Virus record (IMG/VR): IMGVR_UViG_2690316210_000007
Location: 1-35,809 of that record
DNA from: a virus
Taxonomy: Duplodnaviria; Heunggongvirae; Uroviricota; Caudoviricetes
Length of the DNA stretch: 35,809 nt
Direction: 5' to 3' (one strand)
Part shown: positions 2,178 to 35,809 of the stretch, piece by piece
Numbering within the stretch: the stretch's first letter is position 1
Layout of the letters: each line of letters begins with the position of its first letter
Made by a program: the position numbers and the translations under genes
The notes under the pieces: model-generated
Told to the model about the DNA's origin: nothing
Databases searched by the model: none
What the model saw: the letters and a program-made list of their open reading frames with translations, nothing else

Positions 2178-2181
2178 ATGT

Positions 2182-4968: not shown

Positions 4969-5118
4969 AAAGTGAGCCAGTCAAATGGAAGGTATCGTTA
5001 AACTCACCGGTAGTGTCAGTGGGTCGTCTGAGATGCCTGCATGAGTTATCAGAGCCATCAGTACTTAACTGGTGGCTTTTTTTATTGTTGTCAGCTTCCG
5101 GATAACGGGAGACGGGGT

Positions 5119-5334: not shown

Positions 5335-5338
5335 TTCA

Positions 5339-5653: not shown

Positions 5654-5708
5654 CTTTTTGCAGTTGGCTTTCCAGTATCTTTCATTGGTAGCATCCTGAT
5701 AAATATCC

Positions 5709-6697: not shown

Positions 6698-6737
6698 TTT
6701 TAATTTCACTGAAATTTAATACGTGACTTTCAGGAAA

Positions 6738-18828: not shown

Positions 18829-18841
18829 ACGGAGGTAATAC

Positions 18842-19713: not shown

Positions 19714-22267
19714 TCTTGTTATTGACCTGAGTCTGGATGCTGTCCGTTTCGATGAGCAGATGAGCCGGGTAAGGCGTCATTTTTCAGGTCTGGATACCGA
19801 CGCCAGAAAAACCGCCAGTGCTGTTGAACAGGGCCTGAGCCGCCAGGCGCTGGCTGCACAAAAAGCCGGGATTTCCGTCGGGCAGTATAAAGCGGCCATG
19901 CGAACCCTGCCCGCACAGTTTACGGATATCGCCACGCAGCTTGCCGGTGGTCAGAATCCCTGGTTGATCCTGCTGCAACAGGGCGGTCAGGTGAAGGACT
20001 CCTTCGGCGGGATGATCCCCATGTTCAGGGGGCTTGCCGGTGCGATCACCCTGCCGATGGTCGGGGTCACCTCGCTGGCGGTGGCGACAGGTGCGCTGGC
20101 GTACGCCTGGTACCAGGGCGACGCCACGCTTTCAGAATTTAATAAAACGCTGGTCCTTTCCGGCAATCAGGCCGGACTGACTGCCGATCGTATGCTGACG
20201 CTCTCAAGAGCCGGGCAGGCAGCAGGGCTGACGTTTAACCAGGCGAGAGAGTCACTGGCAGCCCTGGTGAATGCCGGTGTGCGTGGTGGTGAACAGTTTG
20301 ATGCCATCAACCAGAGTGTCGCGCGTTTTGCGTCTGCATCCGGTGTGGAGGTGGATAAAGTCGCTGAAGCCTTCGGGAAGCTGACCACTGACCCGACGTC
20401 GGGACTGATGGCGATGGCGCGCCAGTTCCGTAACGTGACGGCAGAGCAGATTGCGTATGTTGCACAGCTGCAGCGTTCCGGAGACGAGGCCGGGGCATTG
20501 CAGGCGGCGAACGATATCGCCACGAAAGGCTTTGATGAGCAGACCCGTCGCCTGAAAGAAAACATGGGAACACTGGAGACCTGGGCGGATAAAACAGGGA
20601 AGGCATTCAAATCGATGTGGGATGCCATTCTGGATATCGGTCGTCCGGAATCCTCAGCGGATATGCTCGCCAGTGCGCAGAAGGCATTTGATGAGGCGGA
20701 TAAAAAATGGCAGTGGTACCAGAGCCGGAGCCAGCGCCGGGGAAAGACCTCCTCTTTTCGTGCGAACCTTCAGGGGGCATGGGATGACCGGGAAAATGCC
20801 CGTCTGGGTCTGGCAGCGGCCACGCTGCAGTCGGATATGGAAAAAGCCGGTGAACTGGCGGCAAGGGACAGGGCTGAGCGTGAGTCGTCACAGCTGAAGT
20901 ATACCGGAGAGGCGCAGAAGGCGTATGAGCGCCTGCAGACGCCGCTGGATAAATATACCGCCCGTCAGAAAGAGCTGAATAAGGCCCTGAAAGACGGAAA
21001 AATCCTGCAGGCGGATTACAACACGCTGATGGCGTCGGCAAAAAAGGATTATGAATCGACGCTGAAAAAGCCGTCAGGTGTGAAGGTGTCTGCCGGTGAG
21101 CGCCAGGAAGACCGGGCGCATGCAGCCCTGCTGGCGCTTGAAACCGAGCTCAGGACGCTGGAAAAACACAGCGGTGTGAATGAGAAAATCAGCCAGCAGC
21201 GCCGGGATTTATGGGAAGCGGAAAGTCAGTATGTGGTCCTGAAAGAGGCCGCCACGAAACGGCAGTTATCTGAGCAGGAAAAATCCCTGCTGGCTCATGA
21301 GAAAGAGACGCTGGAGTACAAACGCCAGCTGGCTGAGCTGGGAGACAAGATTGAACACCAGAAGCGGCTGAATGAGCTGGCACAGCAGGCGGCGCGGTTT
21401 GAACAGCAGCAAAGCGCGAAGCAGGCGGCAATCAGCGCAAAAGCCCGCGGCCTCACCGACCGTCAGGCGCAGCGGGAGTCGGAAGAGCAGCGCCTTCGTG
21501 AGGTGTACGGTGATAATCCGGCTGCGCTGGCGAAGGCCACATCGGCACTGAAGAACACCTGGTCTGCGGAGGAGCAGCTTCGTGGAAGCTGGATGGCCGG
21601 GATGAAGTCCGGCTGGAGTGAGTGGGAAGAGAGCGCCACGGACAGTATGTCACAGGTTAAAAGTGCAGCCACGCAGACCTTTGATGGTATTGCACAGAAT
21701 ATGGCGGCGATGCTGACCGGCAGTGAACAGAACTGGCGCAGCTTCACCCGCTCCGTGCTGTCCATGATGACAGAAATTCTGCTTAAGCAGGCAATGGTGG
21801 GGATTGTCGGGAGTATCGGCAGCGCCATTGGCGGGGCTGTTGGTGGCGGCGCATCCGCGTCAGGCGGTACAGCCATTCAGGCCGCTGCGGCGAAATTCCA
21901 TTTTGCAACCGGGGGATTTACGGGAACCGGCGGCAAATATGAGCCAGCGGGGATTGTTCACCGTGGTGAATTTGTCTTCACAAAGGAGGCAACCAGCCGG
22001 ATTGGCGTGGGGAATCTCTACCGGCTGATGCGCGGCTATGCCACCGGTGGTTATGTCGGTACACCGGGCAGTCTGGCTGACAGCCGGTCGCAGGCGTCCG
22101 GGACGTTTGAGCAGAATAACCATGTGGTGATTAACAACGACGGCACGAACGGGCAGATAGGTCCGGCTGCTCTGAAGGCGGTGTATGACATGGCCCGCAA
22201 GGGTGCCCGTGATGAAATTCAGACACAGATGCGTGATGGTGGCCTGTTCTCCGGAGGTGGACGATGA
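19694..22267 (+). CDS. H: Tail tape measure protein gpH
   Basis: 857 aa (lambda H is about 853), long alpha-helical/coiled-coil central region, Gly-rich C-terminal region, canonical position between G-T and M. Confidence 0.9.
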   Translation: MSQPVGDLVIDLSLDAVRFDEQMSRVRRHFSGLDTDARKTASAVEQGLSRQALAAQKAGISVGQYKAAMRTLPAQFTDIATQLAGGQNPWLILLQQGGQVKDSFGGMIPMFRGLAGAITLPMVGVTSLAVATGALAYAWYQGDATLSEFNKTLVLSGNQAGLTADRMLTLSRAGQAAGLTFNQARESLAALVNAGVRGGEQFDAINQSVARFASASGVEVDKVAEAFGKLTTDPTSGLMAMARQFRNVTAEQIAYVAQLQRSGDEAGALQAANDIATKGFDEQTRRLKENMGTLETWADKTGKAFKSMWDAILDIGRPESSADMLASAQKAFDEADKKWQWYQSRSQRRGKTSSFRANLQGAWDDRENARLGLAAATLQSDMEKAGELAARDRAERESSQLKYTGEAQKAYERLQTPLDKYTARQKELNKALKDGKILQADYNTLMASAKKDYESTLKKPSGVKVSAGERQEDRAHAALLALETELRTLEKHSGVNEKISQQRRDLWEAESQYVVLKEAATKRQLSEQEKSLLAHEKETLEYKRQLAELGDKIEHQKRLNELAQQAARFEQQQSAKQAAISAKARGLTDRQAQRESEEQRLREVYGDNPAALAKATSALKNTWSAEEQLRGSWMAGMKSGWSEWEESATDSMSQVKSAATQTFDGIAQNMAAMLTGSEQNWRSFTRSVLSMMTEILLKQAMVGIVGSIGSAIGGAVGGGASASGGTAIQAAAAKFHFATGGFTGTGGKYEPAGIVHRGEFVFTKEATSRIGVGNLYRLMRGYATGGYVGTPGSLADSRSQASGTFEQNNHVVINNDGTNGQIGPAALKAVYDMARKGARDEIQTQMRDGGLFSGGGR

Positions 22268-22593
22268 AAACCTTCCGCTGGAAAGTGAAACCCGGGATGG
22301 ATGTGACATCGGCTCCTTCCGTCAGGGAGGTGCGCTTTGGTGATGGCTATTCCCAGCGTGCGCCTGCCGGGCTGAACGCTGACCTGAAAACGTACAGCGT
22401 GACGCTGTCTGTCTCCCGTGAGGAGGCCACGGCGCTGGAGTCGTTTCTGGCTGAGCACGGGGGCTGGAAGGCCTTTCTGTGGACGCCGCCTTATGGTTAC
22501 AGGCAGATAAAGGTGACCTGCGCAAAATGGTCGTCGCAGGTCAGTATGTTGCGTGTTGGGTTCAGCGCAGAGTTTAAACAGGTGGTGAACTGA
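22264..22593 (+). CDS. M: Tail tip assembly protein gpM (copy 1)
   Basis: 109 aa, same length as lambda M; starts by ATGA overlap with the H stop. Confidence 0.85.
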   Translation: MKTFRWKVKPGMDVTSAPSVREVRFGDGYSQRAPAGLNADLKTYSVTLSVSREEATALESFLAEHGGWKAFLWTPPYGYRQIKVTCAKWSSQVSMLRVGFSAEFKQVVN

Positions 22594-23618
22594 TGCAGGA
22601 TATCCGGCAGGAAACACTGAATGAATGCACCCGTGCGGAGCAGTCGGCCAGCGTGGTGCTCTGGGAAATCGATCTGACAGAGGTCGGTGGAGAACGTTAT
22701 TTTTTCTGTAATGAGCAGAACGAAAAAGGTGAGCCGGTCACCTGGCAGGGGAGGCAGTATCAGGCGTATCCCATTCAGGGGAGCGGTTTTGAACTGAATG
22801 GCAAAGGCACCAGTACGCGGCCAACGCTGGCAGTCTCTAACCTGTACGGCATGGTCACCGGTATGGTGGAAGATATGCAGAGTCTGGTCGGCGGAACGGT
22901 GGTCCGGCGTAAGGTTTACGCCCGTTTTCTGGATGCGGTGAACTTCGTCAACGGAAACAGCGACGCCGATCCGGAACAGGAGGTGATCAGCCGCTGGCGC
23001 ATTGAGCAGTGCAGCGAACTGAGCGCGGTGAGTGCCTCTTTTGTACTGTCCACGCCGACGGAAACAGATGGCGCTGTTTTTCCGGGACGTATCATGCTGG
23101 CCAACACCTGCACCTGGACCTATCGCGGACTGCTTAAGCAGGCAATGGTGGGGATTGTCGGGAGTATCGGCAGCGCCATTGGCGGGGCTGTTGGTGGCGG
23201 CGCATCCGCGTCAGGTGGTACAGCCATTCAGGCCGCTGCGGCGAAATTCCATTTTGCAACCGGGGGATTTACGGGAACCGGCGGCAAATATGAGCCAGCG
23301 GGGATTGTTCACCGTGGTGAATTTGTCTTCACGAAGGAGGCAACCAGCCGGATTGGCGTGGGGAATCTCTACCGGCTGATGCGCGGCTATGCGGAAGGTG
23401 GTTATGTGGGCGGTGCCGGAAGTCCGGCGCAGATGCGGCGGGCTGAAGGCATTAATTTTAATCAGAACAATCACGTGGTGATTCAGAACGACGGTACGAA
23501 TGGTCTGCCAGGTCCACAGATGATGAAGGCCGTGTATGACATGGCCCGCAAGGGTGCCCGTGATGAAATTCAGACACAGATGCGTGATGGTGGCCTGTTC
23601 TCCGGAGGTGGACGATGA
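22593..23618 (+). CDS. Chimeric ORF: gpL N-terminal ~179 aa fused in frame to the C-terminal ~163 aa of gpH (duplication junction product)
   Basis: Residues 1-179 (MQDIRQETLNECTRAEQSASVVLWEIDL...LANTCTWTYRG) are lambda L-like. From LLKQAMVGIVGSIGSAIGG onward the sequence repeats the H C-terminus of 21778-22267, partly identical at nucleotide level. Confidence 0.7.
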   Translation: MQDIRQETLNECTRAEQSASVVLWEIDLTEVGGERYFFCNEQNEKGEPVTWQGRQYQAYPIQGSGFELNGKGTSTRPTLAVSNLYGMVTGMVEDMQSLVGGTVVRRKVYARFLDAVNFVNGNSDADPEQEVISRWRIEQCSELSAVSASFVLSTPTETDGAVFPGRIMLANTCTWTYRGLLKQAMVGIVGSIGSAIGGAVGGGASASGGTAIQAAAAKFHFATGGFTGTGGKYEPAGIVHRGEFVFTKEATSRIGVGNLYRLMRGYAEGGYVGGAGSPAQMRRAEGINFNQNNHVVIQNDGTNGLPGPQMMKAVYDMARKGARDEIQTQMRDGGLFSGGGR

Positions 23619-23944
23619 AAACCTTCCGCTGGAAAGTGAAACCCGGTATGGATGTGGCTTCGGCCCCTTCTGTAAGAAAGGTGCGCTTTGGTGATGGCTA
23701 TTCCCAGCGAGCGCCTGCCGGGCTGAATGCCAACCTGAAAACGTACAGCGTGACGCTTTCTGTCCCCCGTGAGGAGGCCATGGTACTGGAGTCGTTTCTG
23801 GAAGAGCACGGGGGCTGGAAAGCCTTTCTGTGGACGCCGCCTTATGAGTGGCGGCAGATAAAGGTGACCTGCGCAAAATGGTCGTCGCGGGTCAGTATGC
23901 TGCGTGTTGAGTTCAGCGCAGAGTTTGAACAGGTGGTGAACTGA
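23615..23944 (+). CDS. M: Tail tip assembly protein gpM (copy 2, on the duplicated segment)
   Basis: 109 aa, near-identical to copy 1 with scattered substitutions. Confidence 0.85.
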   Translation: MKTFRWKVKPGMDVASAPSVRKVRFGDGYSQRAPAGLNANLKTYSVTLSVPREEAMVLESFLEEHGGWKAFLWTPPYEWRQIKVTCAKWSSRVSMLRVEFSAEFEQVVN

Positions 23945-24813
23945 TGCAGGATATCCGGCAGGAAACACTGAATGAATGCACCCGTGCGGAGCAGTCGGCC
24001 AGCGTGGTGCTCTGGGAAATCGATCTGACAGAGGTCGGTGGAGAACGTTATTTTTTCTGTAATGAGCAGAACGAAAAAGGTGAGCCGGTCACCTGGCAGG
24101 GGCGACAGTATCAGCCGTATCCCATTCAGGGGAGTGGTTTTGAACTGAATGGCAAAGGCACCAGTACGCGCCCCACGCTGATGGTTTCTAACCTGTACGG
24201 TATGGTCACCGGGATGGCGGAAGATCTACAGAGTCTGGTCGGCGGAACGGTGGTCCGGCGTAAGGTTTACGCCCGTTTTCTGGATGCGGTGAACTTCGTC
24301 AACGGAAACAGTGACGCCGATCCGGAGCAGGAGGTGATCAGCCGCTGGCGCATTGAGCAGTGCAGCGAACTGAGCGCGGTGAGTGCCTCTTTTGTACTGT
24401 CCACGCCGACGGAAACAGATGGCGCTGTTTTTCCGGGACGTATCATGCTGGCCAACACCTGCACCTGGACCTATCGCGGCGATGAGTGCGGTTATCACGG
24501 TCCGGCGGTCGCGGATGAATATGACCAGCCAACGTCCGACATCACGAAGGATAAATGCAGCAAATGCCTGAGTGGCTGTAAGTTTCGAGATGGCGCTGTT
24601 TTTCCGGGGCGTATCATGCTGGCCAACACCTGCACCTGGACCTATCGCGGTGATGAGTGCGGTTATCACGGTCCGGCAGTCGCGGATGAATATGACCAGC
24701 CGACGTCCGATATCACGAAGGATAAATGCAGCAAATGCCTGAGCGGCTGTAAGTTTCGCAATAACGTCGGCAACTTTGGCGGCTTCCTTTCCATTAACAA
24801 ACTTTCGCAGTAA
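23944..24813 (+). CDS. L: Tail tip protein gpL carrying an in-frame 57-codon tandem duplication
   Basis: 289 aa versus 232 for lambda L. The block DGAVFPGRIMLANTCTWTYRGDECGYHGPAVADEYDQPTSDITKDKCSKCLSGCKFR occurs twice in tandem (24418-24588 and 24589-24759). Confidence 0.8.
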   Translation: MQDIRQETLNECTRAEQSASVVLWEIDLTEVGGERYFFCNEQNEKGEPVTWQGRQYQPYPIQGSGFELNGKGTSTRPTLMVSNLYGMVTGMAEDLQSLVGGTVVRRKVYARFLDAVNFVNGNSDADPEQEVISRWRIEQCSELSAVSASFVLSTPTETDGAVFPGRIMLANTCTWTYRGDECGYHGPAVADEYDQPTSDITKDKCSKCLSGCKFRDGAVFPGRIMLANTCTWTYRGDECGYHGPAVADEYDQPTSDITKDKCSKCLSGCKFRNNVGNFGGFLSINKLSQ

Positions 24814-26191: not shown

Positions 26192-26462
26192 ATGGGTAAA
26201 GGCAGCAGTAAGGGGCATACCCCGCGCGAAGCGAAGGACAACCTGAAGTCCACGCAGCTGCTGAGTGTGATCGATGCCATCAGCGAAGGGCCGGTTGAAG
26301 GTCCGGTGGACGGATTAAAAAGCGTGCTGCTGAACAGTACGCCGGTGCTGGACAGTGAGGGGAATACCAACATCTCCGGCGTCACGGTGGTGTTCCGGGC
26401 AGGTGAGCAGGAGCAGACACCGCCGGAGGGTTTTGAATCCTCCGGCTCCGAGACGGTGCTGA
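26192..26462 (+). pseudogene. J: gpJ (central tail fibre / host specificity) N-terminal fragment, truncated by IS insertion or deletion
   Basis: MGKGSSKGHTPREAKDNLKSTQLLSVIDAISEGPVEGPVDGLKSVLLNSTPVLDSEGNTNISGVTVVFRAGEQEQTPPEGFESSGSETVL matches the N-terminus of the full J at 33724. Homology stops at 26462, where IS3-family sequence begins. Confidence 0.8.
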
Positions 26463-27600
26463 TGAAAATCAACTTTCGATCAGTGAAGGCGCTTCCCGAT
26501 TATCTCTTCCTGAAGGCACTTTAGGACAATGGGTTACCGCCGCCAGAAAAGGGCTCGGTACTCCTGGTTCCCGCACGGTGGCTGAACTGGAATCTGAAAT
26601 TCTGCAACTGCGTAAGGCGTTAAATGAAGCTCGCCTTGAGCGAGATATATTAAAAAAAGCAACAGCGTATTTTGCACAGGAGTCGCTGAAAAATACGCGT
26701 TAATCGAACAATGGCGACAACAATTTCCCATTGAAGCGATGTGTCAGGTATTTGGTGTATCCAGGAGCGGTTATTACAACTGGGTACAGCATGAACCCTC
26801 AGACAGAAAACAAAGTGATGAGCGGCTAAAACTGGAGATTAAGGTGGCACATATCCGCACTCGCGAAACATATGGAACCCGGCGGCTCCAGACGGAGCTG
26901 GCAGAGAATGGCATCATCGTTGGTCGTGACCGACTGGCACGTCTTCGTAAGGAGCTAAGGCTACGCTGTAAGCAGAAACGCAAGTTCAGAGCGACTACGA
27001 ACTCGAACCACAATCTGCCAGTTGCGCCAAATCTGCTGAACCAGACGTTCGCTCCTACAGCACCAAATCAGGTCTGGGTGGCGGACCTGACGTATGTTGC
27101 CACACAGGAGGGATGGTTGTACCTCGCTGGCATCAAAGATGTTTATACGTGCGAAATTGTCGGCTACGCCATGGGAGAGCGCATGACAAAAGAGCTGACA
27201 GGTAAAGCCCTGTTTATGGCGCTCAGGAGCCAGCGCCCACCTGCCGGGCTAATCCACCACTCTGATCGAGGTTCACAGTACTGCGCATACGATTACCGGG
27301 TCATACAGGAGCAGTCTGGTCTGAAAACATCAATGTCGCGTAAAGGTAACTGTTACGACAACGCTCCGATGGAAAGCTTCTGGGGAACGCTGAAAAATGA
27401 GAGCCTGAGCCACTATCGTTTTAATAACCGGGATGAAGCCATCTCAGTAATACGGGAATACATTGAGATTTTCTACAATCGTCAGCGTCGTCACTCTCGT
27501 CTGGGGAATATCTCCCCGGCAGCCTTCAGGGAAAAATATCATCAGATGGCTGCTTAAAAAAAGAACAAATGGTAGTGTCCGCTATTGCCAGTACACCTCA
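26463..27600 (+). mobile_element. IS3-family insertion sequence, 5'-truncated (lacks left inverted repeat and the start of orfA)
   Basis: Partial orfA (..TVAELESEILQLRKALNEARLERDILKKATAYFAQESLKNTR*, stop 26701-26703); slippery A-run AAAAAAAG at 26652-26659; orfB in the -1 frame with DDE-type core (HHSDRGSQY, GNCYDNA). Right end TGAGGTGTACTGGCAATAGCGGACAC (reverse complement of ~27575-27600) resembles IS3-family terminal repeats. Confidence 0.8.
26739..27557 (+). CDS. IS3-family transposase orfB (DDE integrase core); normally expressed as an OrfAB frameshift fusion
   Basis: 272-aa ORF; ..QVWVADLTYV..GWLYLAGIKDVYTCEIVGYAMGERMT.., HHSDRGSQYCA, KGNCYDNAPMESFWGTLK, RRHSRLGNISPAAF are typical of IS3-family OrfB. 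Confidence 0.85.
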   Translation: MCQVFGVSRSGYYNWVQHEPSDRKQSDERLKLEIKVAHIRTRETYGTRRLQTELAENGIIVGRDRLARLRKELRLRCKQKRKFRATTNSNHNLPVAPNLLNQTFAPTAPNQVWVADLTYVATQEGWLYLAGIKDVYTCEIVGYAMGERMTKELTGKALFMALRSQRPPAGLIHHSDRGSQYCAYDYRVIQEQSGLKTSMSRKGNCYDNAPMESFWGTLKNESLSHYRFNNRDEAISVIREYIEIFYNRQRRHSRLGNISPAAFREKYHQMAA

Positions 27601-27652
27601 CTCTGACGGAGAGTTTGTGGCAGTGGCTGCGGTGACCGTCAGCGCACCATAA
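27601..27652 (+). pseudogene. V: Remnant of a second major tail protein gene (V), last ~17 codons only
   Basis: ..GEFVAVAAVTVSAP* immediately after the IS right end parallels the C-terminus of V copy 1 (..[18 protein letters not shown]). Confidence 0.55.
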
Positions 27653-27672
27653 CAGGACGATACTCATCATTG

Positions 27673-27697
27673 CCCCGGTTATCCGGGGCTTTTTGCA
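27673..27697 (+). terminator. Intrinsic terminator-like hairpin between the V remnant and G copy 2
   Basis: ccccgg-ttat-ccgggg followed by CTTTTTG. Confidence 0.4.
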
Positions 27698-27710
27698 TCC
27701 GGAGAACATG

Positions 27711-28097
27711 ATGTTTCTGAAACAGGATACGTTTAATTATGAAAAACAGTCCGTGGTGCTCAGTGAGCTGTCCGGGCTGCAGAGAATTGAATATCTGACG
27801 TTTGTTCAGCAGCGAACGGCAAAGTTTGATGCACAGGAGGGAGAACTGCCGGAGGCTGAACGACAGATTGCTTTTCTGCGTATGGGAATGGATATCAATG
27901 CCTGGCTGGTTTCCCGCTCACTGTGGAATGCTGAGCAGTCTCAGGATGTTGAGACGCTTTGCGCATCCATTATGACAACATGGTCGTATGATGCGCTGGG
28001 CGCGGGGGCGGAGAGGGTTCTGTCGCTGAGCGGTATGGGGACCATTGAGAATGCCGGGGATGATGATCATGAGGCGCTGACGCCGGAAAAGTCCTGA
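27711..28097 (+). CDS. G: Tail assembly chaperone gpG (copy 2, divergent)
   Basis: MFLKQDTFNYEKQSVVLSELSGLQRIEYL... parallels G copy 1 (MFLKTEQFEYNGVSVTLSELSALQRIEHL...). RBS ggaga 5 nt before ATG 27711; the ORF-track start at 27693 is a TTG extension. Confidence 0.8.
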   Translation: MFLKQDTFNYEKQSVVLSELSGLQRIEYLTFVQQRTAKFDAQEGELPEAERQIAFLRMGMDINAWLVSRSLWNAEQSQDVETLCASIMTTWSYDALGAGAERVLSLSGMGTIENAGDDDHEALTPEKS

Positions 28098-28435
28098 CGC
28101 GGGAAATGCAGTTTGTCATGCGGCTTGCCCGGGAGTTCCGGCGGGCAGACTGGCGGCGGATGCTGTCGGATATGTCGGCCACTGAGCTTGGTGAGTGGGG
28201 CGATTATTTCCGGATGCAGAGCTTCAGTGATGTGTGGATGGATGCGCAGTTTGCCTCGCTGAAGGCATTGATCGTGAGAATGGTGTCCGGCAGCAGCGAT
28301 GCTGCGGTGGCTGATTTCAGCCTTTTACCGGAAGAGAACGGGATACCGGAGCGAACGGACGAAGAACTGATGCATCTTGGGGAAGGTATTTCCGGAGGTG
28401 TGCGTTATGGACCAGATAGCCAACCTGGTCATTGA
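27711..28435 (+). CDS. T: gpG-T fusion (copy 2) by presumed -1 frameshift near the end of G
   Basis: The downstream ORF 28106-28435 is in the -1 frame relative to G and runs into the H copy 2 start. The probable slip region CCGGAAAAGTCC (28086-28097) is not the canonical GGGAAAG. Confidence 0.55.
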
Positions 28436-30242
28436 TTTGGGGATTGATGCGGCAGAGTTTAAAAATGAAATTCCCCGTATCAAAAACCTTCTGAATGGTG
28501 CAGCCAGCGATGCAGAACGGTCTTCTGCCCGTATGCAGCGTTTTATGGAGCGTCAGACTCAGGCGGCCCGGCAGACAATGCAGGCGGCTTCTTCGGCTGC
28601 AACAGCAGCATCAGCCCATGCGCAGACGGTGGAAAAGAACGCACGGGCTCATGAACGCATGGCCCGTGAGGTGGAACAAACCCGTCTGCGCGTGGATGCC
28701 CTGAATCAGAAAATGCTCGAGGAACAGGCGCAGGCCAGGGCACTGGCGGAGGCGCAGGATAAAGCGGCTGCCGCCTTTTATCGCCAGATTGACAGTGTGA
28801 AACAGGCCGGTGCGGGGCTTCAGGAATTACAGCGTATTCAGCAGCAGATCCGACAGGCCAGAAACAGTGGCGGGGTTGGTCAGCAGGATTATCTGGCGCT
28901 GATTTCGGAGATCACGGCGAAAACCCGTGCCCTGACGCAGGCAGAGGAACAGGCCACCCGGCAGAAAGCGGCGTTTATCCGCCAGCTTAAAGAGCAGGCA
29001 ACCCGCCAGAATCTGTCGTCTTCTGAGTTGCTTCGCGCCAGGGCGGCTCAGCTGGGGGTAAGCAGTGCTGCAGAAGTGTATATCCGCAAAATGGAGCGGG
29101 CAGGAAAAGCCACACATTCGCTGGGGCTGAAAAGTGCGGCAGCCCGGCGGGAGCTGGGGGTGTTAATCAGTCAGATGGCGCGCGGCAATTTTGGTGCGCT
29201 GAGGGGATCCGGGATAACGCTGGCTAACCGTGCCGGATGGACAGGCGCACTGATGTCGCCGAAAGGCATGATGACTGGCGGCGTTATTGGCGGACTTGTC
29301 GCGGCGGTCCTGGGTCTGGGTAAAGCCTGGCATGACGGCCGGAAGGAGGGCGAGGAATTTAACCGTCAGCTGGCGCTGACGGGACATTATGCCGGTGTCA
29401 CTGTCGGGCAGTTGTGGAAACTCAGCCGGGCCATATCCGGGAATGGTATCACGCAACATGCGGCAGCCGGTGCGCTGGCACAGGTGGTGGGCAGTGGGGC
29501 ATTTCATGGAAACGATATTGGTATGGTGGCGAAAGCTGCCGCACAGATGGAGCGATCGGTTGGCCAGTCGGTCAGCGATACCATAAATCAGTTTAAGCGG
29601 CTGAAGGATGATCCTGTAAATGCCGCGAAGGCGCTGGACAATGCGCTGCATTTTTTGACTGCCACTCAGCTTGAGCAGATACGCGTCCTTGGGGAGCAGG
29701 GGCGGTCCAGTGATGCGGCCCGGATCGCCATGTCTGCGCTGGCAGAGGAAACCGGTAAACGCACATCTGATATTGATAATAATCTCAATGCGCTGGGTAG
29801 TACGCTGCAAACCTTGTCTGACTGGTGGAAGCAGTTCTGGGATGCGGCCATGAATATTGGTCGTGAAGACTCGCTGGATGCGCAGATTGATGCGTTACAG
29901 GAAAAAATTCAGCGCGCGAAAAAATATCCGTGGACAAACGCCTCCACACAGGTGGAGTACGATCAGCAGCGTCTTAACGATCTTCAGGAGAAAAAACGCC
30001 GGAAGGATTTGCAGGATGCAAAAGCGCAGGCAGAACGGAATTACCAGGAGCAACAGAAACGCCGGAATGCTGAAAATGCCGCGCTGAACCGGATGAATGA
30101 AACGGAAGCTGCACGACATCAGCGTGAAAATGAACGTTACGAAAAAGCCATTAAGAAAAATACACGGGCAACCCGTAATGATGAGGCCACCCGGTTATTG
30201 CTGCTGCCAGACAGTCAGCAGGCATTGCCACTGAAAGGATGA
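28407..30242 (+). CDS. H: Tail tape measure protein gpH copy 2, N-terminal ORF
   Basis: RBS ggaggtg before ATG 28407; MDQIANLVIDLGIDAAEF... parallels the H copy 1 start MSQPVGDLVIDLSLDAVRF...; coiled-coil-like composition. Ends at TGA 30240-30242, overlapping the ATG of the next ORF. Confidence 0.75.
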   Translation: MDQIANLVIDLGIDAAEFKNEIPRIKNLLNGAASDAERSSARMQRFMERQTQAARQTMQAASSAATAASAHAQTVEKNARAHERMAREVEQTRLRVDALNQKMLEEQAQARALAEAQDKAAAAFYRQIDSVKQAGAGLQELQRIQQQIRQARNSGGVGQQDYLALISEITAKTRALTQAEEQATRQKAAFIRQLKEQATRQNLSSSELLRARAAQLGVSSAAEVYIRKMERAGKATHSLGLKSAAARRELGVLISQMARGNFGALRGSGITLANRAGWTGALMSPKGMMTGGVIGGLVAAVLGLGKAWHDGRKEGEEFNRQLALTGHYAGVTVGQLWKLSRAISGNGITQHAAAGALAQVVGSGAFHGNDIGMVAKAAAQMERSVGQSVSDTINQFKRLKDDPVNAAKALDNALHFLTATQLEQIRVLGEQGRSSDAARIAMSALAEETGKRTSDIDNNLNALGSTLQTLSDWWKQFWDAAMNIGREDSLDAQIDALQEKIQRAKKYPWTNASTQVEYDQQRLNDLQEKKRRKDLQDAKAQAERNYQEQQKRRNAENAALNRMNETEAARHQRENERYEKAIKKNTRATRNDEATRLLLLPDSQQALPLKG

Positions 30243-31339
30243 CTGAAGCGCATAAACAGCTTCTGGCCCTGCAGCAGCGCATCAGCGACCTGGACGGGAA
30301 AAAGCTGACGGCAGATGAAAAGAGTGTGCTGACCCGTAAGAATGAGCTGATTCAGGCGCTGACGCTGCTGGATGTGAAACAGCAGGAGCTGCAGAAACAG
30401 ACAGCGCTTAACGACCTGAGAAAAAAAACGGTTCAGCTGACCAGCCAGCTGGCAGACAAAGAACGTGCACTGCGTGAGCAGCACAATCTGGATATTGCCA
30501 CTGCAGGTATGGGGGATAAGCAGCGGCAGCGCTACCAGGCACAGTTGCGCATCCGGCAGGAATACCGGCAACAGTTGCAACAGCTTGAGAATGACAGTCG
30601 CCAGAAAGGCACTTACGGGACGGAGGACTACCGGAGGGCTGAGGAGGTGCTGAAGGGGAGCCTGAAGCGACAACTGAATGAAAACAAACGCTACTGGCAG
30701 GAACTGGAAGTGGCGCAGGGCGACTGGAAAAACGGTGCCATGCGGGCGTTTCAGCATTTTACGGCGGATGCGGATAATGCGGCGGGAACGGCAGAACAGA
30801 TGTTTACAGTGGCATTCAGCAGTGCCGGTAATGCACTGGCGACATTCTGTACCACCGGTAAGCTGAATTTTAAATCCTTCACCTCTTCCCTGTTGTCAGA
30901 TATGGCCAGAATTATGGCACAGATGGCCATGATGCAGGCGGTAAAGGGCGTCGGTTCTTTATTCGGCTTCACGACTAATGCTGATGGCGGTGTTTACCAG
31001 TCTGCTGATTTGAGTCGCTACAGTGGCACGGTGGTTAACCGTCCGACGTTTTTTGCTTTTGCAAAAGGCGCGGGTGTGATGGGGGAAGCGGGACCTGAAG
31101 CCATTCTGCCACTGCGTCGCGGTGCTGATGGTAAGCTGGGGGGTGTGGCGGATACTGGTGGTTCAGGCATGGTGATGTTTGCCCCGCAGTACAACATTGA
31201 GATCAATAACGATGGCACGAACGGGCAGATAGGTCCGGCTGCCCTGAAGGTGGTTTATGACCTCGGGAAAAAAGCGGCCGCGGACTTTATGCAACAGCAG
31301 GCCCGTGATGGTGGCCGGTTAAGTGGAGCATACCGGTAA
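30239..31339 (+). CDS. H: Tail tape measure protein gpH copy 2, C-terminal ORF in a different frame
   Basis: 366 aa ending ...FAPQYNIEINNDGTNGQIGPAALKVVYDLGKKAAADFMQQQARDGGRLSGAYR, homologous to the H copy 1 C-terminus (..NNDGTNGQIGPAALKAVYDMARKGARDEIQTQMRDGGLFSGGGR). Confidence 0.75.
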   Translation: MTEAHKQLLALQQRISDLDGKKLTADEKSVLTRKNELIQALTLLDVKQQELQKQTALNDLRKKTVQLTSQLADKERALREQHNLDIATAGMGDKQRQRYQAQLRIRQEYRQQLQQLENDSRQKGTYGTEDYRRAEEVLKGSLKRQLNENKRYWQELEVAQGDWKNGAMRAFQHFTADADNAAGTAEQMFTVAFSSAGNALATFCTTGKLNFKSFTSSLLSDMARIMAQMAMMQAVKGVGSLFGFTTNADGGVYQSADLSRYSGTVVNRPTFFAFAKGAGVMGEAGPEAILPLRRGADGKLGGVADTGGSGMVMFAPQYNIEINNDGTNGQIGPAALKVVYDLGKKAAADFMQQQARDGGRLSGAYR

Positions 31340-31668
31340 TGGAGACGTTTCACTGGAAAGTGCGCCCGGATATGAATGTGGTATCAGAGCCGAAAGTGGT
31401 GACAGTGAAGCTGGGCGATGGTTATGAACAGCGTCGTGCGGCGGGACTGAATAACCAGTTGTCGACTTACAGCGTGACGATACGTGTTCGTAAAGGTGAA
31501 CACCCATTTTTAAAAGCCTTTCTGGAACGGCACGGTGGCGTCCGCGCATTTCAGTGGACGCCACCTTATGACTGGAAGCCGATCAGGGTGGTTTGTCGTA
31601 AATGGTCGGCAAGCGTGGGGGCGTTGTGGGTAACCATAACGGCAGATTTTGAACAGGTCGTGGCATAG
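31339..31668 (+). CDS. M: Tail tip assembly protein gpM (copy 3, divergent)
   Basis: 109 aa, METFHWKVRPDMNVVSEPKVVTVKLGDGYEQRRAAGLN..., collinear with the other M copies. Confidence 0.85.
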   Translation: METFHWKVRPDMNVVSEPKVVTVKLGDGYEQRRAAGLNNQLSTYSVTIRVRKGEHPFLKAFLERHGGVRAFQWTPPYDWKPIRVVCRKWSASVGALWVTITADFEQVVA

Positions 31669-31677
31669 GAGGCTCTG

Positions 31678-32376
31678 ATGCAGGATATTCCACAGGAAAC
31701 ACATCATGAGACGACACGCCTCACTCAGTCAGCCCAGGTGGTGCTCTGGGAAATCGATCTGACAGAGGTCGGTGGTGAACGTTATTTTTTCTGTAATGAG
31801 CAGAACGAAAAAGGTGAGCCGGTTACCTGGCAGGGGCGGCAGTATCAGGCATACCCCATTCAGGGGACGGGATTTGAACTGAACGGCAAGGGCAGTGCTG
31901 CCCGTCCGACACTGACGGTTTCTAACCTGCACGGAATGGTCACCGGGATGGCGGAAGACCTGCAGAGTCTGGTCGGCGGAACGGTGGTCAGGCGTAAGGT
32001 TTACGCCCGTTTTCTGGATGCGGTGAACTTCGTCAACGGAAACAGCGACGCCGATCCGGAACAGGAGGTGATCAGCCGCTGGCGCATCGAGCAGTGCAGC
32101 GAACTGAGCGCGGTCAGTGCCTCTTTTGTGCTGGCCACACCAACGGAGACGGATGGCGCGGTTTTCCCGGGGCGTATCATGCTGGCGAATACCTGTATGT
32201 GGACTTACCGTTCTGATGAGTGTGGTTACACGGGCAGGGCAGTGGCTGACGAGTTCGACAAACCAACGACGGATATCCGGAAGGACAAATGCAGCAAGTG
32301 TATGCGCGGGTGTGAGTTGCGCAACAATACCGGTAATTTCGGCGGTTTCCTTTCCATCAATAAACTTTCTCAGTAA
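31678..32376 (+). CDS. L: Tail tip protein gpL (copy 3, 232 aa, no internal duplication)
   Basis: Lambda-length L with C-terminal Cys cluster (DECGYTG...CSKCMRGC) and ..NFGGFLSINKLSQ* end. Confidence 0.85.
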   Translation: MQDIPQETHHETTRLTQSAQVVLWEIDLTEVGGERYFFCNEQNEKGEPVTWQGRQYQAYPIQGTGFELNGKGSAARPTLTVSNLHGMVTGMAEDLQSLVGGTVVRRKVYARFLDAVNFVNGNSDADPEQEVISRWRIEQCSELSAVSASFVLATPTETDGAVFPGRIMLANTCMWTYRSDECGYTGRAVADEFDKPTTDIRKDKCSKCMRGCELRNNTGNFGGFLSINKLSQ

Positions 32377-32380
32377 ATCC

Positions 32381-33124
32381 ATGACACAGACAGAATCAGC
32401 GATTCTGGCGCACGCCCGGCGATGTGCTCCAGCGGAGTCGTGTGGCTTCGTGGTGAGAACGCCGGAGGGAGACAGGTATCTTCCCAGCGAGAATATCTCC
32501 GGTGAGCCGGAGGAACGGTTCCGGATGGCTCCGGAGGACTGGCTGCGGGCACAAATGCAGGGTGAGATTGTGGCGCTGGTCCACAGTCATCCCGGTGGTC
32601 TGCCCTGGCTGAGTGAGGCTGACCGGCGGCTGCAGGTGCAGAGTGATTTGCCGTGGTGGCTGGTCTGCCGGGGGGCGATTCACAAGTTCCGCTGTGTGCC
32701 GCATCTCACCGGGCGGCGCTTTGAGCACGGGGTGACGGACTGTTACACGCTGTTCCGGGATGCTTATCATCTGGCAGGGATTGAGATGCCGGATTTTCAT
32801 CGCGGGGATGACTGGTGGCGTAACGGTCAGAATCTCTATCTTGACAATATGGAGGTGACGGGTTTTTACCGTGTCGCACTGACAGAGGCACAGCCGGGCG
32901 ATGTGCTGCTGTGCTGTTTTGGTTCATCGGTGCCGAATCATGCCGCCATTTACTGTGGTGACGGCGAGCTGCTGCACCATATTCCTGAACAACTGAGCAA
33001 ACGAGAGAGGTACACCGACAAATGGCAGCGACGCACACACTCCCTCTGGCGTCACCGGGCATGGCGCGCATCTGCCTTTACGGGGATTTACAACGATTTG
33101 GTCGCCGCATCGACCTTCGTGTGA
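32381..33124 (+). CDS. K: Tail tip assembly protein gpK (copy 2)
   Basis: MTQTESAILAHARRCAPAESCGFVVRTPEGDRY...HSHPGG...; the ORF-track start at 32117 is an upstream extension overlapping L. Confidence 0.85.
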   Translation: MTQTESAILAHARRCAPAESCGFVVRTPEGDRYLPSENISGEPEERFRMAPEDWLRAQMQGEIVALVHSHPGGLPWLSEADRRLQVQSDLPWWLVCRGAIHKFRCVPHLTGRRFEHGVTDCYTLFRDAYHLAGIEMPDFHRGDDWWRNGQNLYLDNMEVTGFYRVALTEAQPGDVLLCCFGSSVPNHAAIYCGDGELLHHIPEQLSKRERYTDKWQRRTHSLWRHRAWRASAFTGIYNDLVAASTFV

Positions 33125-33663
33125 AAACGGGGGCTGAAGCCATCCGGGCACTGGCCACACAGCTCCCGGCGTTTCGTCAGAAACTGAGTGACGGCTGGTA
33201 TCAGGTGCGCATTGCCGGGCGTGATGCAGGTGAAACCGAATTGTCTGCCCGTCTTAATGAGCCGCTGGCAAATGGTGCAGTGATCCACATAGTACCGCGT
33301 CTGGTGGGAGCTAAAAGTGGCGGTGTGTTTCAGGCGGTGCTGGGGGCGGCTGTTATGGCGGTTGCTATATGGATGCCGGGGGTAGGAATTATGGCGAGTA
33401 ATCTGCTGTTTTCTCTCGGTGCCAGTATGACGCTTGGCGGTGTTGCACAGATGCTGGCACCGAAAGCCAGAACTCCCCGTACACAGACAACGGATAACGG
33501 TAAGCAGAACACGTATTTCTCGTCACTGGATAACATGGTTGCCCAGGGCAATGTTCTGCCCGTTCTGTACGGTGAAATGCGCGTGGGGTCACGTGTGGTT
33601 TCTCAGGAGATCAGCACGGCAGACGAAGGGGATGGTGGTCAGGTTGTGGTGATTGGTCGCTGA
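33022..33663 (+). CDS. I: Tail tip assembly protein gpI (copy 2)
   Basis: 213 aa, MAATHTLPLASPGMARICLYGDLQRFGRRIDLRVKTGAEAIRALATQLPAFRQ... Confidence 0.85.
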   Translation: MAATHTLPLASPGMARICLYGDLQRFGRRIDLRVKTGAEAIRALATQLPAFRQKLSDGWYQVRIAGRDAGETELSARLNEPLANGAVIHIVPRLVGAKSGGVFQAVLGAAVMAVAIWMPGVGIMASNLLFSLGASMTLGGVAQMLAPKARTPRTQTTDNGKQNTYFSSLDNMVAQGNVLPVLYGEMRVGSRVVSQEISTADEGDGGQVVVIGR

Positions 33664-33723
33664 TGCAAAATGTTTTATGTGAAACCGCCTGCGGGCGGTT
33701 TTGTCGTTTATGGAGCGTGAGGA

Positions 33724-35809
33724 ATGGGTAAAGGCAGCAGTAAGGGGCATACCCCGCGCGAAGCGAAGGACAACCTGAAATCCACGCAGTTGCTGAGTGT
33801 GATTGATGCCATCAGCGAAGGGCCGGTTGACGGTCCGGTGGATGGATTAAAAAGCGTGCTGCTGAACGGTACGCCGGTCCTGGACAGCGAGGGGAAGACA
33901 AACTTTTCCGGTGTTACGGTGGTGTTCCGTGCAGGTGAGCAGGAGCAGACACCGCCGGAGGGTTTTGAATCCTCCGGCTCCGAGACGGTGCTGGGTACGG
34001 AAGTGAAATATGACACGCCGATCACCCGGACCATCACGTCGGCAAACATCGACCGTCTGCGCTTTACCTTCGGTGTGCAGGCACTGGTGGAAACCACCTC
34101 AAAGGGTGACCGGAATCCGTCGGAAGTCCGCCTGCTGGTTCAGATACAGCGTAACGGTGGCTGGGTGACGGAAAAAGACATCACCATTAAGGGCAAAACC
34201 ACTTCGCAGTATCTGGCCTCGGTGGTGGTGGGTAACCTGCCGCCGCGCCCGTTTAATATCCGGATGCGCAGGATGACACCGGACAGCACCACAGACCAGC
34301 TGCAGAACAAAACGCTCTGGTCGTCATACACCGAAATCATCGATGTGAAACAGTGCTACCCGAACACGGCGCTGGTCGGCGTGCAGGTGGATTCAGAGCA
34401 GTTCGGTAACCAGCAGGTGAGTCGCAATTATCATCTTCGCGGGCGCATTCTGCAGGTGCCGTCGAACTATAACCCGCAGACGCGGCAATACAGCGGTATC
34501 TGGGACGGAACGCTTAAGCCAGCATACAGCAACAACATGGCCTGGTGTCTGTGGGACATGCTCACTCATCCGCGCTACGGCATGGGGAAACGTCTTGGTG
34601 CGGCAGATGTGGACAAATGGGCGCTGTATGTCATCGGCCAGTACTGCGACCAGTCAGTGACGGACGGATTTGGCGGCACGGAGCCGCGCATCACCTGTAA
34701 CTCTTACCTGACCACACAGCGTAAGGCGTGGGATGTTCTCAGTGATTTCTGCTCGGCGATGCGCTGTATGCCGGTATGGAACGGACAGATGCTGACGTTC
34801 GTGCAGGACCGACCGTCGGATAAGGTGTGGGCCTATAACCGCAGTAATGTGGTGATGCCGGACGATGGCGCGCCGTTCCGCTACAGCTTCAGCGCCCTGA
34901 AGGACCGCCATAATGCCGTTGAGGTGAACTGGATTGACCCAGATAACGGCTGGGAGACGGCGACAGAGCTTGTGGAGGATACGCAGGCCATTGTCCGTTA
35001 CGGTCGTAACGTCACGAAGATGGATGCCTTTGGCTGTACCAGCCGGGGGCAGGCACACCGCGCCGGGCTGTGGCTGATTAAAACGGAACTGCTGGAAACG
35101 CAGACCGTGGACTTCAGCGTGGGCGCAGAAGGGCTTCGCCATGTACCGGGTGATGTCATTGAAATCTGCGATGATGATTATGCCGGTATCAGCACCGGTG
35201 GTCGCGTACTGGCGGTGAACAGCCAGACCCGGACGCTGACGCTCGACCGTGAAATCACGCTGCCGTCCTCCGGTACCACGCTGATAAGCCTGGTTGACGG
35301 AAGTGGCAATCCGGTCAGCGTGGAGGTCCAGTCCGTCACCGACGGCGTGAAGGTGAAAGTGAGCCGTGTTCCTGACGGCGTTGCAGAATACAGCGTGTGG
35401 GGGCTGAAGCTGCCGACGCTGCGCCAGCGTCTGTTCCGCTGCGTGAGTATCCGTGAGAACGACGACGGCACGTATGCCATCACCGCCGTGCAGCATGTGC
35501 CGGAAAAAGAGGCCATCGTGGATAACGGGGCACACTTTGACGGTGACCGGCGCGGCACGGTGAATGGTGTCACGCCGCCAGCGGTGCAGCATCTGACCGC
35601 CGAAGTCACCGCAGACAGCGGGGAATATCAGGTGCTGGCGCGCTGGGACACGCCGAAGGTGGTGAAGGGTGTGAGCTTCCTGCTTCGCCTGACCGTGGCA
35701 GCGGACGACGGCAGTGAGCGGCTGGTCAGCACAGCCAGGACGACGGAAACCACATACCGCTTCAGGCAGCTGGCGCTGGGGAACTACAGGCTGACAGTCC
35801 GGGCAGTAA
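33724..35809 (+). CDS. J: Central tail fibre / host specificity protein gpJ (copy 2), 5' portion; continues past the window end
   Basis: ATG 33724 (MGKGSSKGHTPREAKDNLKSTQLL...). The frame was spot-checked as open at 34081 and at the window end (..FRQLALGNYRLTVRAV); the ORF track omits it because it is unterminated in the window. Confidence 0.85.
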   Translation, partial: MGKGSSKGHTPREAKDNLKSTQLLSVIDAISEGPVDGPVDGLKSVLLNGTPVLDSEGKTNFSGVTVVFRAGEQEQTPPEGFESSGSETVLGTEVKYDTPITRTITSANIDRLRFTFGVQALVETTSKGDRNPSEVRLLVQIQRNGGWVTEKDITIKGKTTSQYLASVVVGNLPPRPFNIRMRRMTPDSTTDQLQNKTLWSSYTEIIDVKQCYPNTALVGVQVDSEQFGNQQVSRNYHLRGRILQVPSNYNPQTRQYSGIWDGTLKPAYSNNMAWCLWDMLTHPRYGMGKRLGAADVDKWALYVIGQYCDQSVTDGFGGTEPRITCNSYLTTQRKAWDVLSDFCSAMRCMPVWNGQMLTFVQDRPSDKVWAYNRSNVVMPDDGAPFRYSFSALKDRHNAVEVNWIDPDNGWETATELVEDTQAIVRYGRNVTKMDAFGCTSRGQAHRAGLWLIKTELLETQTVDFSVGAEGLRHVPGDVIEICDDDYAGISTGGRVLAVNSQTRTLTLDREITLPSSGTTLISLVDGSGNPVSVEVQSVTDGVKVKVSRVPDGVAEYSVWGLKLPTLRQRLFRCVSIRENDDGTYAITAVQHVPEKEAIVDNGAHFDGDRRGTVNGVTPPAVQHLTAEVTADSGEYQVLARWDTPKVVKGVSFLLRLTVAADDGSERLVSTARTTETTYRFRQLALGNYRLTVRAV

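What the first reader, a model, noticed from the sequence alone, without database searches (positions are those of the whole stretch)
28407..31339. Tape measure gene of the second module is split into two overlapping ORFs in different frames
The N-terminal ORF (611 codons) stops at TGA 30240-30242, overlapping the ATG (30239) of a 366-codon ORF that carries the conserved H C-terminus. Together they would make about 977 aa, against about 855 aa for H copy 1. This is either a frameshift pseudogene, a sequencing error, or a genuinely split, translationally coupled tape measure.
Basis: seen in the sequence. Interest (0 to 1): 0.4.

Follow-up and report, generated by a model that had tools for sequence, protein, structure and literature searches.

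The report
Deletion-broken prophage tape measure gene
The "split" tail tape measure gene is real, but it is an ordinary pseudogene: a 43-base deletion between two short repeats broke the reading frame of a prophage gene in a lineage of Shigella sonnei.

Summary
ORF 28407-30242 (611 codons) and ORF 30239-31339 (366 codons) overlap in ATGA and carry the N-terminal (TMP_2) and C-terminal (TMP_4 / Tape_meas_lam_C) tape measure domains. The window is a Shigella sonnei draft scaffold (GCA_001261215.1, CXAQ01000042.1). Against a 99.4%-identical intact 1013-aa gene in E. coli CFSAN029787, and the 1021-aa gene of phage mEp460, the window lacks 66 nt (in frame) and 43 nt (out of frame). The 43-nt loss lies between two ATTGCTGC repeats. 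After it come 12 aberrant codons, then a TGA that already sits out of frame inside a native ...GGATGACT... Putting the 43 nt back gives one open 991-codon frame. All 80 IMG/VR relatives examined have a single 1013-1024-aa ORF. No complete E. coli genome (5,426) has this junction. The 611+366 pair recurs only in S. sonnei assemblies, made with different assemblers, so it is an inherited mutation and not a read error. No recoding signal is present. In the window, IS600 has replaced everything upstream of the last 52 nt of V. One E. coli O121 prophage remnant reached the same TGA/ATG split through a different 46-nt deletion. Verdict: a frameshift pseudogene in a decaying prophage. Low interest.

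The parts
26463..27600 (+). IS600 (IS3 family) copy, incomplete at its left end, which is a scaffold join (N at 26462 in the public record). In the window it replaces everything upstream of the last 52 nt of gene V of the second tail module.
   Evidence: Matches at 99.4-99.7% to features annotated 'IS3-like element IS600 family transposase'. ORF 26739-27557 has rve/HTH_21 domains. Homology to the intact prophage starts at 27601. N at 26462.
27601..27652 (+). Remnant of the major tail gene V (last 52 nt, including the TAA stop).
   Evidence: blastn of the window against the intact prophage L004 begins at L004 5502, inside V (4813-5553). Stop position.
27711..28097 (+). Tail assembly chaperone G (128 aa).
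   Evidence: Pfam Phage_TAC_2, E=2.7e-40.
28106..28435 (+). Tail assembly protein T (109 aa).
   Evidence: Pfam Phage_tail_T, E=3.9e-15.
28407..30242 (+). 5' fragment of the tape measure pseudogene: 599 native codons, 12 out-of-frame codons (30204-30239, LPDSQQALPLKG), then TGA.
   Evidence: Pfam TMP_2, E=1.9e-46. Alignment to intact genes. Frame analysis.
30120..30124 (+). Junction of the in-frame 66-nt (22-codon) deletion. This is the retained copy of the CAGCG microhomology.
   Evidence: Alignments. The deletion is absent from S. sonnei contig L012, which still has the 43-nt deletion.
30197..30204 (+). Junction of the frame-breaking 43-nt deletion. This is the single retained copy of the 8-nt direct repeat ATTGCTGC, which occurs twice, 43 nt apart, in intact genes.
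   Evidence: Alignments. 78 of 80 intact relatives keep both repeat copies and none has the junction. Restoring the 43 nt gives one open 991-codon frame.
30239..31339 (+). 3' fragment of the tape measure pseudogene (366 codons). It starts at a native internal Met codon (…TERMTEAH…) and is in the original frame.
   Evidence: Pfam Tape_meas_lam_C, E=5.4e-25, and a truncated TMP_4 match. The restored translation reads through this Met.
31339..31668 (+). Tail tip gene M (109 aa), apparently intact.
   Evidence: Pfam Phage_min_tail on record for this gene. Annotated homologues.
31678..32376 (+). Tail tip gene L (232 aa), apparently intact.
   Evidence: Pfam Phage_tail_L on record.
32381..33124 (+). 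Tail gene K (247 aa, JAB/NlpC-P60).
   Evidence: Pfam Prok-JAB and NLPC_P60 on record. ATG start checked.
33022..33663 (+). Tail assembly gene I.
   Evidence: Pfam Lambda_tail_I on record. ORF.
33724..35809 (+). 5' part of tail tip gene J. It is open for 695 codons and runs off the end of the contig.

Best explanation
The two ORFs are the halves of one lambda-like (mEp460/cdtI-type) tail tape measure gene, inactivated by a 43-bp deletion in a prophage of a Shigella sonnei lineage.

In intact genes the 8-nt sequence ATTGCTGC occurs twice, 43 nt apart, in a CAG/CTG-rich stretch. One repeat copy and the sequence between the copies were lost. This is the footprint of replication slippage or microhomology-mediated deletion (the mechanism is inferred).

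The loss shifts the frame. Twelve wrong codons follow, and translation then stops at a TGA that already lies out of frame inside the native sequence ...GGATGACT... The ATG of that same sequence is an ordinary internal Met codon. From it, the rest of the gene remains open in its original frame. That produces the 366-codon ORF and the ATGA overlap that looks like translational coupling.

The 611-aa product lacks the C-terminal domains, and the 366-aa product lacks the N-terminal part. A continuous ruler protein cannot be made, so the gene is a pseudogene (inferred from the established role of the protein).

A second, in-frame 66-nt deletion between CAGCG microhomologies lies 74 nt upstream. In the window, an IS600 copy has removed everything upstream of the last 52 nt of V. 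Both fit ongoing prophage decay.
For: (1) An intact 3042-nt gene exists at 99.4% identity in E. coli CFSAN029787. Phage mEp460 has an intact 3066-nt gene.
(2) Alignment shows only four gaps relative to mEp460, of 66, 9, 43 and 15 nt. Only the 43-nt gap is out of frame. The 9- and 15-nt gaps are shared with the intact CFSAN029787-type allele.
(3) Re-inserting the 43 nt gives a single 991-codon ORF with no internal stop. It differs from the intact allele by 5 substitutions.
(4) The retained repeat ATTGCTGC is at 30197-30204, and 78 of 80 intact relatives have both copies.
(5) All 80 IMG/VR relatives have one 1013-1024-aa ORF. Seventeen phage records cover at least 80% of the query, and those listed annotate a single TMP. 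The one exception is a partial record split at a different place.
(6) None of 5,426 complete E. coli genomes has the junction. A 30-mer across the junction hits only S. sonnei draft contigs in IMG/VR and nothing in the GTDB species representatives.
(7) The exact 611-aa and 366-aa products are each on 17 contigs named S. sonnei, including Logan assemblies of raw runs and a later NCBI assembly.
(8) The 58-nt zone where both frames are open (30185-30242) has no X_XXY_YYZ heptamer and no homopolymer run of 4 or more.
(9) The same gene type has decayed independently elsewhere. E. coli O121 201805972 has a 46-nt deletion between ACAGTCAGCAG repeats, and FDAARGOS_944 has a 1-nt deletion. RefSeq marks both 'frameshifted'.
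(10) IS600 abuts the V remnant.
(11) Literature. Split TMP genes are read as marks of degenerate prophages (PMC8026635). Pseudogene and IS turnover is fastest in S. sonnei among the three Shigella species compared (PMC7373316). In lambda, the tail tube polymerises along the tape measure protein until that protein is covered (PMC8718954).
Against: Nothing shows directly that the two products are not made or cannot work; no expression or virion data exist. The ATGA overlap could allow termination-reinitiation, so the C-terminal fragment may be translated. M, L, K and I downstream look intact, and J is open as far as the contig goes. In one Logan assembly (ERR1009120, L013) the split gene is preceded by intact V and U, so the IS600 truncation is not universal, or the genome holds more than one copy. 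Draft S. sonnei scaffolds mix alleles of several related prophage copies (L005), so linkage beyond the gene itself is uncertain.
Confidence: 0.93

Rival explanations
1. The split is a sequencing or assembly artefact. The real genome has an intact gene, and the 43 nt were dropped by the assembler or by collapse of several prophage copies.
For: The record is a short-read scaffold with three N joins flanked by artefactual tandem duplications. Other S. sonnei scaffolds visibly mix an intact-type and a deleted allele (L005). Several related tape measure copies therefore exist per genome.
Against: The gene region 27601-35809 has no N. The same junction appears in assemblies of different isolates made by different pipelines, including two Logan assemblies and GCA_013849225.1. 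The flanking repeat is only 8 nt, far shorter than assembler k-mers, so repeat collapse cannot explain the loss. L012 carries the 43-nt deletion without the 66-nt one, as expected for real alleles.
Confidence: 0.03
2. The gene is genuinely split and functional. The 611-aa and 366-aa products are both made, through translational coupling at ATGA, and together act as a two-piece tape measure.
For: The ATGA stop/start overlap is the classic arrangement for termination-reinitiation. The downstream tail genes appear intact. The same stop/start arose independently in an E. coli O121 prophage.
Against: The overlap pre-exists as an out-of-frame TGA inside a native Met codon context in intact genes, so it was not selected for. 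0 of 80 diverged relatives are split. The allele is confined to a narrow S. sonnei lineage and differs from an intact gene by 5 substitutions. The split cuts through the TMP_4 domain. AGGA directly abuts the ATG, so there is no normal spacing for independent initiation. The O121 case sits in a remnant with an IS1-truncated head-tail gene and a J gene with an internal stop. A ruler protein has to be continuous from the tail tip to the top of the tube (established model, PMC8718954).
Confidence: 0.03
3. The frame is restored by programmed ribosomal frameshifting. A -1 shift before TGA 30240 would fuse the two ORFs into one roughly 975-aa protein.
For: The second frame is -1 relative to the first. 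Both frames are open over 30185-30242. Lambda-like tail operons use a -1 shift in G-T (established knowledge).
Against: That zone has no slippery heptamer and no homopolymer run. The arrangement is explained fully by a recent deletion. It is not conserved in any relative.
Confidence: 0.01

Closest known systems
Tail tape measure protein of lambdoid phages mEp460 / cdtI / Tritos / Ayreon (1021 aa), and the 1013-aa allele in prophages of E. coli CFSAN029787 and several Shigella species
   Same: Same gene and same operon order (G, T, TMP overlapping T by 29 nt, M, L, K, I, J). Nucleotide identity is 89% to the phages and 99.4% to the CFSAN029787 allele. Same Pfam domains: TMP_2, TMP_4 and Tape_meas_lam_C.
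   Different: The window copy lacks 66 nt (in frame) and 43 nt (out of frame). It is therefore broken into 611- and 366-codon ORFs. In the window it sits in a remnant without V, U, Z or head genes directly upstream.
Frameshifted tape measure pseudogenes annotated by RefSeq in E. coli O121 201805972 (PWR57_RS13040) and FDAARGOS_944 (I6H01_RS24630)
   Same: Same gene at about 99% identity, also frame-broken, also in prophage remnants. The O121 copy ends its first ORF at the same TGA and restarts at the same ATG, giving 632+366 aa.
   Different: The mutations are different and independent. O121 has a 46-nt deletion between 11-nt repeats ACAGTCAGCAG. FDAARGOS_944 has a 1-nt deletion in a G run. 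Neither has the 66-nt deletion.
Phage lambda gpH (853 aa) and the window's own copy 1 (19694-22267, 857 aa)
   Same: Same role and overall domain layout: TMP_2 near the N-terminus and Tape_meas_lam_C near the C-terminus. There is a short 61-nt stretch of 90% identity in the C-terminal region.
   Different: A different, shorter subfamily with no nucleotide similarity elsewhere. It is not the right length standard for the split gene.
TMP genes split into two CDS in degenerate plasmid prophages of the Bacillus cereus group (PMC8026635)
   Same: A tape measure gene appears as two adjacent CDS and is read as a sign that the prophage cannot make particles.
   Different: Unrelated phages and hosts. 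The causes of those splits were not resolved to a specific deletion.

Membership tests
Lambda-like tail tape measure protein, mEp460/cdtI subtype | Sequence homology over the whole length to intact members | tested here: met
   99.4% nucleotide identity to the intact 3042-nt gene of CFSAN029787 and about 89% to mEp460. The two ORFs together cover the homologue except for the 66- and 43-nt gaps.
Lambda-like tail tape measure protein, mEp460/cdtI subtype | Pfam domains TMP_2 (N-terminal part) and Tape_meas_lam_C (C-terminal part) | tested here: met
   TMP_2 E=1.9e-46 in the first ORF. Tape_meas_lam_C E=5.4e-25 in the second. The TMP_4 match is cut at the start of the second ORF.
Lambda-like tail tape measure protein, mEp460/cdtI subtype | Position in the operon: after G and T, overlapping the end of T, before M-L-K-I-J | tested here: met
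   G 27711-28097, T 28106-28435, TMP from 28407, M 31339, L 31678, K 32381, I 33022, J 33724. Same order as in mEp460.
Lambda-like tail tape measure protein, mEp460/cdtI subtype | One uninterrupted reading frame of about 1013-1024 codons (a functional gene) | tested here: not met
   The frame is broken by a 43-nt deletion and stops at 30240-30242. All 80 relatives examined are uninterrupted. The locus is therefore a pseudogene of this family and not a working member.
Translationally coupled split gene (conserved two-cistron version of a protein) | The split is conserved among diverged homologues | tested here: not met
   0 of 80 IMG/VR relatives at 84-98% identity are split. The junction is absent from 5,426 complete E. 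coli genomes. It is found only in S. sonnei draft contigs.
Translationally coupled split gene (conserved two-cistron version of a protein) | Both products are made and needed | not testable with these tools
   This needs proteomics or genetics.
Programmed -1 ribosomal frameshift site | Slippery heptamer X_XXY_YYZ in the zone where both frames are open | tested here: not met
   None found in 30185-30242, and no homopolymer run of 4 or more.
IS600 (IS3 family) bordering the module | Near-identity to annotated IS600 copies and an rve-type transposase | tested here: met
   99.4-99.7% identity over about 1150 nt to 'IS3-like element IS600 family transposase'. rve, rve_2, rve_3 and HTH_21 domains. 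The left end is cut by the scaffold join at 26462.

The most novel reading that the evidence does not exclude
The CAG/CTG-rich stretch of this tape measure gene is a deletion hotspot. It repeatedly yields the same TGA/ATG-coupled two-piece gene: a 43-nt deletion in S. sonnei and a 46-nt deletion in E. coli O121. The two pieces might still be co-translated and assemble into a working or altered tail, making this a naturally occurring two-piece tape measure.
Probability: 0.03. Interest if true: 0.55.

Novelty: already known. Interest (0 to 1): 0.07.

Why it matters
It matters little beyond correct annotation. The two CDS deposited as separate 'tail length tape measure proteins' of S. sonnei should be one pseudogene. 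The apparent tandem pair of tail modules in this record is partly a scaffolding product.

The case is a clean, fully resolved example of prophage decay in Shigella by short-repeat deletion plus IS600 truncation. It also shows that an ATGA 'coupling' overlap can arise for free from a frameshift.

The 43-nt junction could serve as a lineage marker for the S. sonnei isolates that carry it.

Tried and rejected
- **Copy 1 (857 aa) as the length standard: rejected.** It is a different subfamily, sharing only a 61-nt similar stretch.
- **A single-base indel as the cause: rejected.** The cause is a 43-nt deletion.
- **Search for a recoding signal: nothing found.** No slippery heptamer and no homopolymer run in 30185-30242.
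- **Search for the same split in other genomes.** There was no match in the GTDB species representatives. The IMG/VR matches were only the same S. sonnei draft contigs. No complete E. coli genome has the junction.
- **Phage record vB_EcoS-606R10, which lists two TMP features.** It is split at a different place (after 327 codons, with a 107-nt gap) in a partial genome, so it is not the same arrangement.
- **Substitution pattern against the intact allele.** There is 1 synonymous and 4 non-synonymous change, too few to say anything about selection.
- **Literature search for functional split tape measures.** It returned only degenerate-prophage cases.
Full report
**What is there**

A + strand ORF runs from ATG 28407 (an upstream TTG at 28377 is also open) to TGA 30240-30242, which is 611 codons from the ATG. 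A second + strand ORF runs from ATG 30239 to 31339, 366 codons. Stop and start overlap as ATGA, and the second frame is -1 relative to the first.

Both are genuine gene fragments. The first has Pfam TMP_2 (E=1.9e-46). The second has Tape_meas_lam_C (E=5.4e-25), and at its very first residues a TMP_4 match that starts only at profile position 29 of 77. The split therefore cuts through a domain.

The flanking genes are the usual lambda-type tail genes: G (27711-28097), T (28106-28435), then M, L, K, I and the start of J.

**Where the window comes from**

An exact-sequence look-up identifies the window as the whole of contig CXAQ01000042.1 (35,809 bp) of Shigella sonnei assembly GCA_001261215.1.

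The public record has single-N scaffold joins at 23129, 24588 and 26462. The window shows 'A' at those positions. The joins coincide with two tandem duplications: 21779-23128 / 23130-24479 at 92.9% identity, and 24417-24587 / 24588-24758 at 96.5%. They also coincide with the abrupt junction between a J fragment and an IS element.

The duplicated M/L genes of the first module, and the adjacency of the two tail modules, therefore rest on scaffolding of several related prophage copies. They are not shown by continuous sequence. The split gene itself lies in N-free sequence (26463-35809).

**What caused the split**

The gene is not of the lambda-H type represented by copy 1 (857 aa). It belongs to the mEp460/cdtI type.
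- Phage mEp460 has an intact gene of 3066 nt (1021 aa) at about 89% identity.
- E. coli CFSAN029787 has an intact gene of 3042 nt (1013 aa) at 99.4% identity over the query region.

Alignment shows four gaps in the window relative to mEp460, of 66, 9, 43 and 15 nt. The 9- and 15-nt gaps are shared with the intact 1013-aa allele. Relative to its closest intact relative, the window has lost exactly 66 nt (22 codons, in frame) and 43 nt (out of frame).

The 43-nt loss lies between two copies of ATTGCTGC that are 43 nt apart in intact genes. One copy remains, at 30197-30204. The 66-nt loss lies between CAGCG microhomologies, with the retained copy at 30120-30124.

After the 43-nt junction, twelve wrong codons (LPDSQQALPLKG) lead to TGA 30240. 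That TGA and the overlapping ATG are already present, as ...GGATGAC..., in intact genes. There, the ATG is an ordinary internal Met codon (…TERMTEAH…) and the TGA is out of frame. The ATGA overlap is thus a by-product of the frameshift and not an evolved coupling signal.

Re-inserting the 43 nt restores a single open frame of 991 codons. It differs from the intact allele by 5 substitutions, 1 synonymous and 4 non-synonymous.

**Is the arrangement conserved?**

No.
- All 80 related loci fetched from IMG/VR (84-98% amino-acid identity) have one uninterrupted ORF of 1013-1024 codons. None has the junction. 78 of the 80 keep both ATTGCTGC copies.
- None of 5,426 complete E. coli genomes has the junction. 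Their best matches to 30100-30300 are all interrupted by the extra 43 nt, or in one case carry a different deletion.
- A 30-mer across the junction has no match in the GTDB species representatives. It has three matches in IMG/VR. Two of those contigs have the lengths of S. sonnei draft contigs already found here, and one (L097) was checked and is identical to L007.

**Is it a sequencing error?**

This is unlikely. The exact 611-aa and 366-aa proteins are each recorded on 17 contigs, named S. sonnei by their sources. The same junction is present in assemblies made by different pipelines, including Logan assemblies of runs ERR1009120 and ERR5975928 and the later assembly GCA_013849225.1. An 8-nt repeat is far too short to cause an assembler collapse.

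One S. sonnei contig (L012) has the 43-nt deletion but not the 66-nt one. This suggests, by inference, that the frame-breaking deletion came first and the in-frame one followed as neutral decay.

Another scaffold (L005) joins an intact-type segment to the deleted allele across an N gap. At least some S. sonnei genomes therefore hold more than one copy of this gene type.

**Could it still work?**

The zone where both frames are open (30185-30242) has no -1 slippery heptamer and no homopolymer run of 4 or more. Nothing there suggests recoding. AGGA directly abuts the ATG, which is too close for normal independent initiation. Termination-reinitiation at ATGA cannot be excluded.

In the established lambda model, the tail tube polymerises along the tape measure protein from the tip complex until the protein is covered (PMC8718954). 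Two separate pieces would not provide a continuous ruler. This step is inference, not a test.

The context also argues for decay.
- In the window, and in at least four other assemblies whose contigs begin at the same point, an IS600 copy lies directly upstream of the last 52 nt of V (27601-27652). V, U, Z and the head genes are therefore missing from this copy.
- One Logan assembly instead shows intact U and V upstream of the split gene. Either the deletion predates the IS600 event or there are two copies.

**Independent decay of the same gene**

E. coli O121 strain 201805972 carries a 46-nt deletion at the same spot, between 11-nt repeats ACAGTCAGCAG. It gives a 632-codon ORF ending at the same TGA and the same 366-codon ORF from the same ATG. 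That copy sits in a remnant bounded by IS1, with a J gene that has an internal stop.

E. coli FDAARGOS_944 has a 1-nt deletion in a G run. RefSeq marks both as 'frameshifted'.

It is not met by conservation.

**Comparison with what is known**

This is a pseudogene of a well-known phage gene family, in a genus known for IS expansion and rapid pseudogene turnover. IS600 is one of five IS expanded in all Shigella species, and among the three species compared, diversification of IS and pseudogene profiles is fastest in S. sonnei (PMC7373316). Tape measure genes split into two CDS have been read as signs of degenerate prophages elsewhere (PMC8026635).

Nothing here departs from known biology. The most novel reading not excluded is that the hotspot repeatedly yields a co-translated, two-piece, still functional tape measure. 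I put that at about 3%.

**Verdict**

'Sequencing error' and 'genuinely split gene' are not supported. Interest is low.

Noticed in passing
window 23129, 24588, 26462; repeats 21779-23128 / 23130-24479 and 24417-24587 / 24588-24758: The public record has single-N scaffold joins at these three positions, shown as 'A' in the window. Each is flanked by a tandem duplication or an abrupt change of sequence. The doubled M gene, the odd 341-aa and 289-aa L-like ORFs and the side-by-side placement of two tail modules are most likely scaffolding products of several related prophage copies.
   Followed up: yes
window 26463-27600 and 27601-27652: An IS600 copy abuts the last 52 nt of the major tail gene V of the second module. 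Contigs of at least four other S. sonnei assemblies begin at this same point, but one Logan assembly (ERR1009120) has intact U and V there instead.
   Followed up: partly
window 26192-26461 versus 33724-33993: A 5' fragment of a J gene (94% identical to the J start of the second module) ends at the scaffold join before IS600. The 110-aa ORF 26192-26524 is this fragment read through the join.
   Followed up: partly
L002 (E. coli O121 201805972) 5166-5204; L001 (FDAARGOS_944): The same short CAG/CTG-rich stretch of the tape measure gene has been hit by an independent 46-nt deletion between 11-nt repeats in E. coli O121, giving the same TGA/ATG split. This suggests a local deletion hotspot.
   Followed up: partly
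window 785-6700: The left part looks like the late region of a Stx-type lambdoid phage but has no toxin genes. It holds a DNA methylase (785-1834), tRNA-Met (1884-1959), tRNA-Arg (2060-2136), about 1 kb without a convincing ORF, a 618-aa NanS-p-like esterase (3112-4968), then holin, DUF1327, lysozyme and Rz.
   Followed up: partly
window 7676-8743 (- strand): A 355-aa ORF on the opposite strand, between the lysis genes and Nu1, matches the whole Pfam 'Beta_protein' family (PF14350, E=7e-56). It looks like a moron-type insertion. Its function was not examined.
   Followed up: no
window 28085-28097: The end of G reads ...CCG GAA AAG TCC TGA. The lambda G-T slippery heptamer GGGAAAG is absent from 27601-28500. 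How or whether G-T fusion is made in this subtype was not examined.
   Followed up: no
window 18169-19503 (-) and 34654-35592 (-): Long antisense ORFs (444 and 312 codons) lie inside V-G-T and J. They had no Pfam hit on record where looked up and are probably chance ORFs of G+C-rich coding sequence.
   Followed up: no
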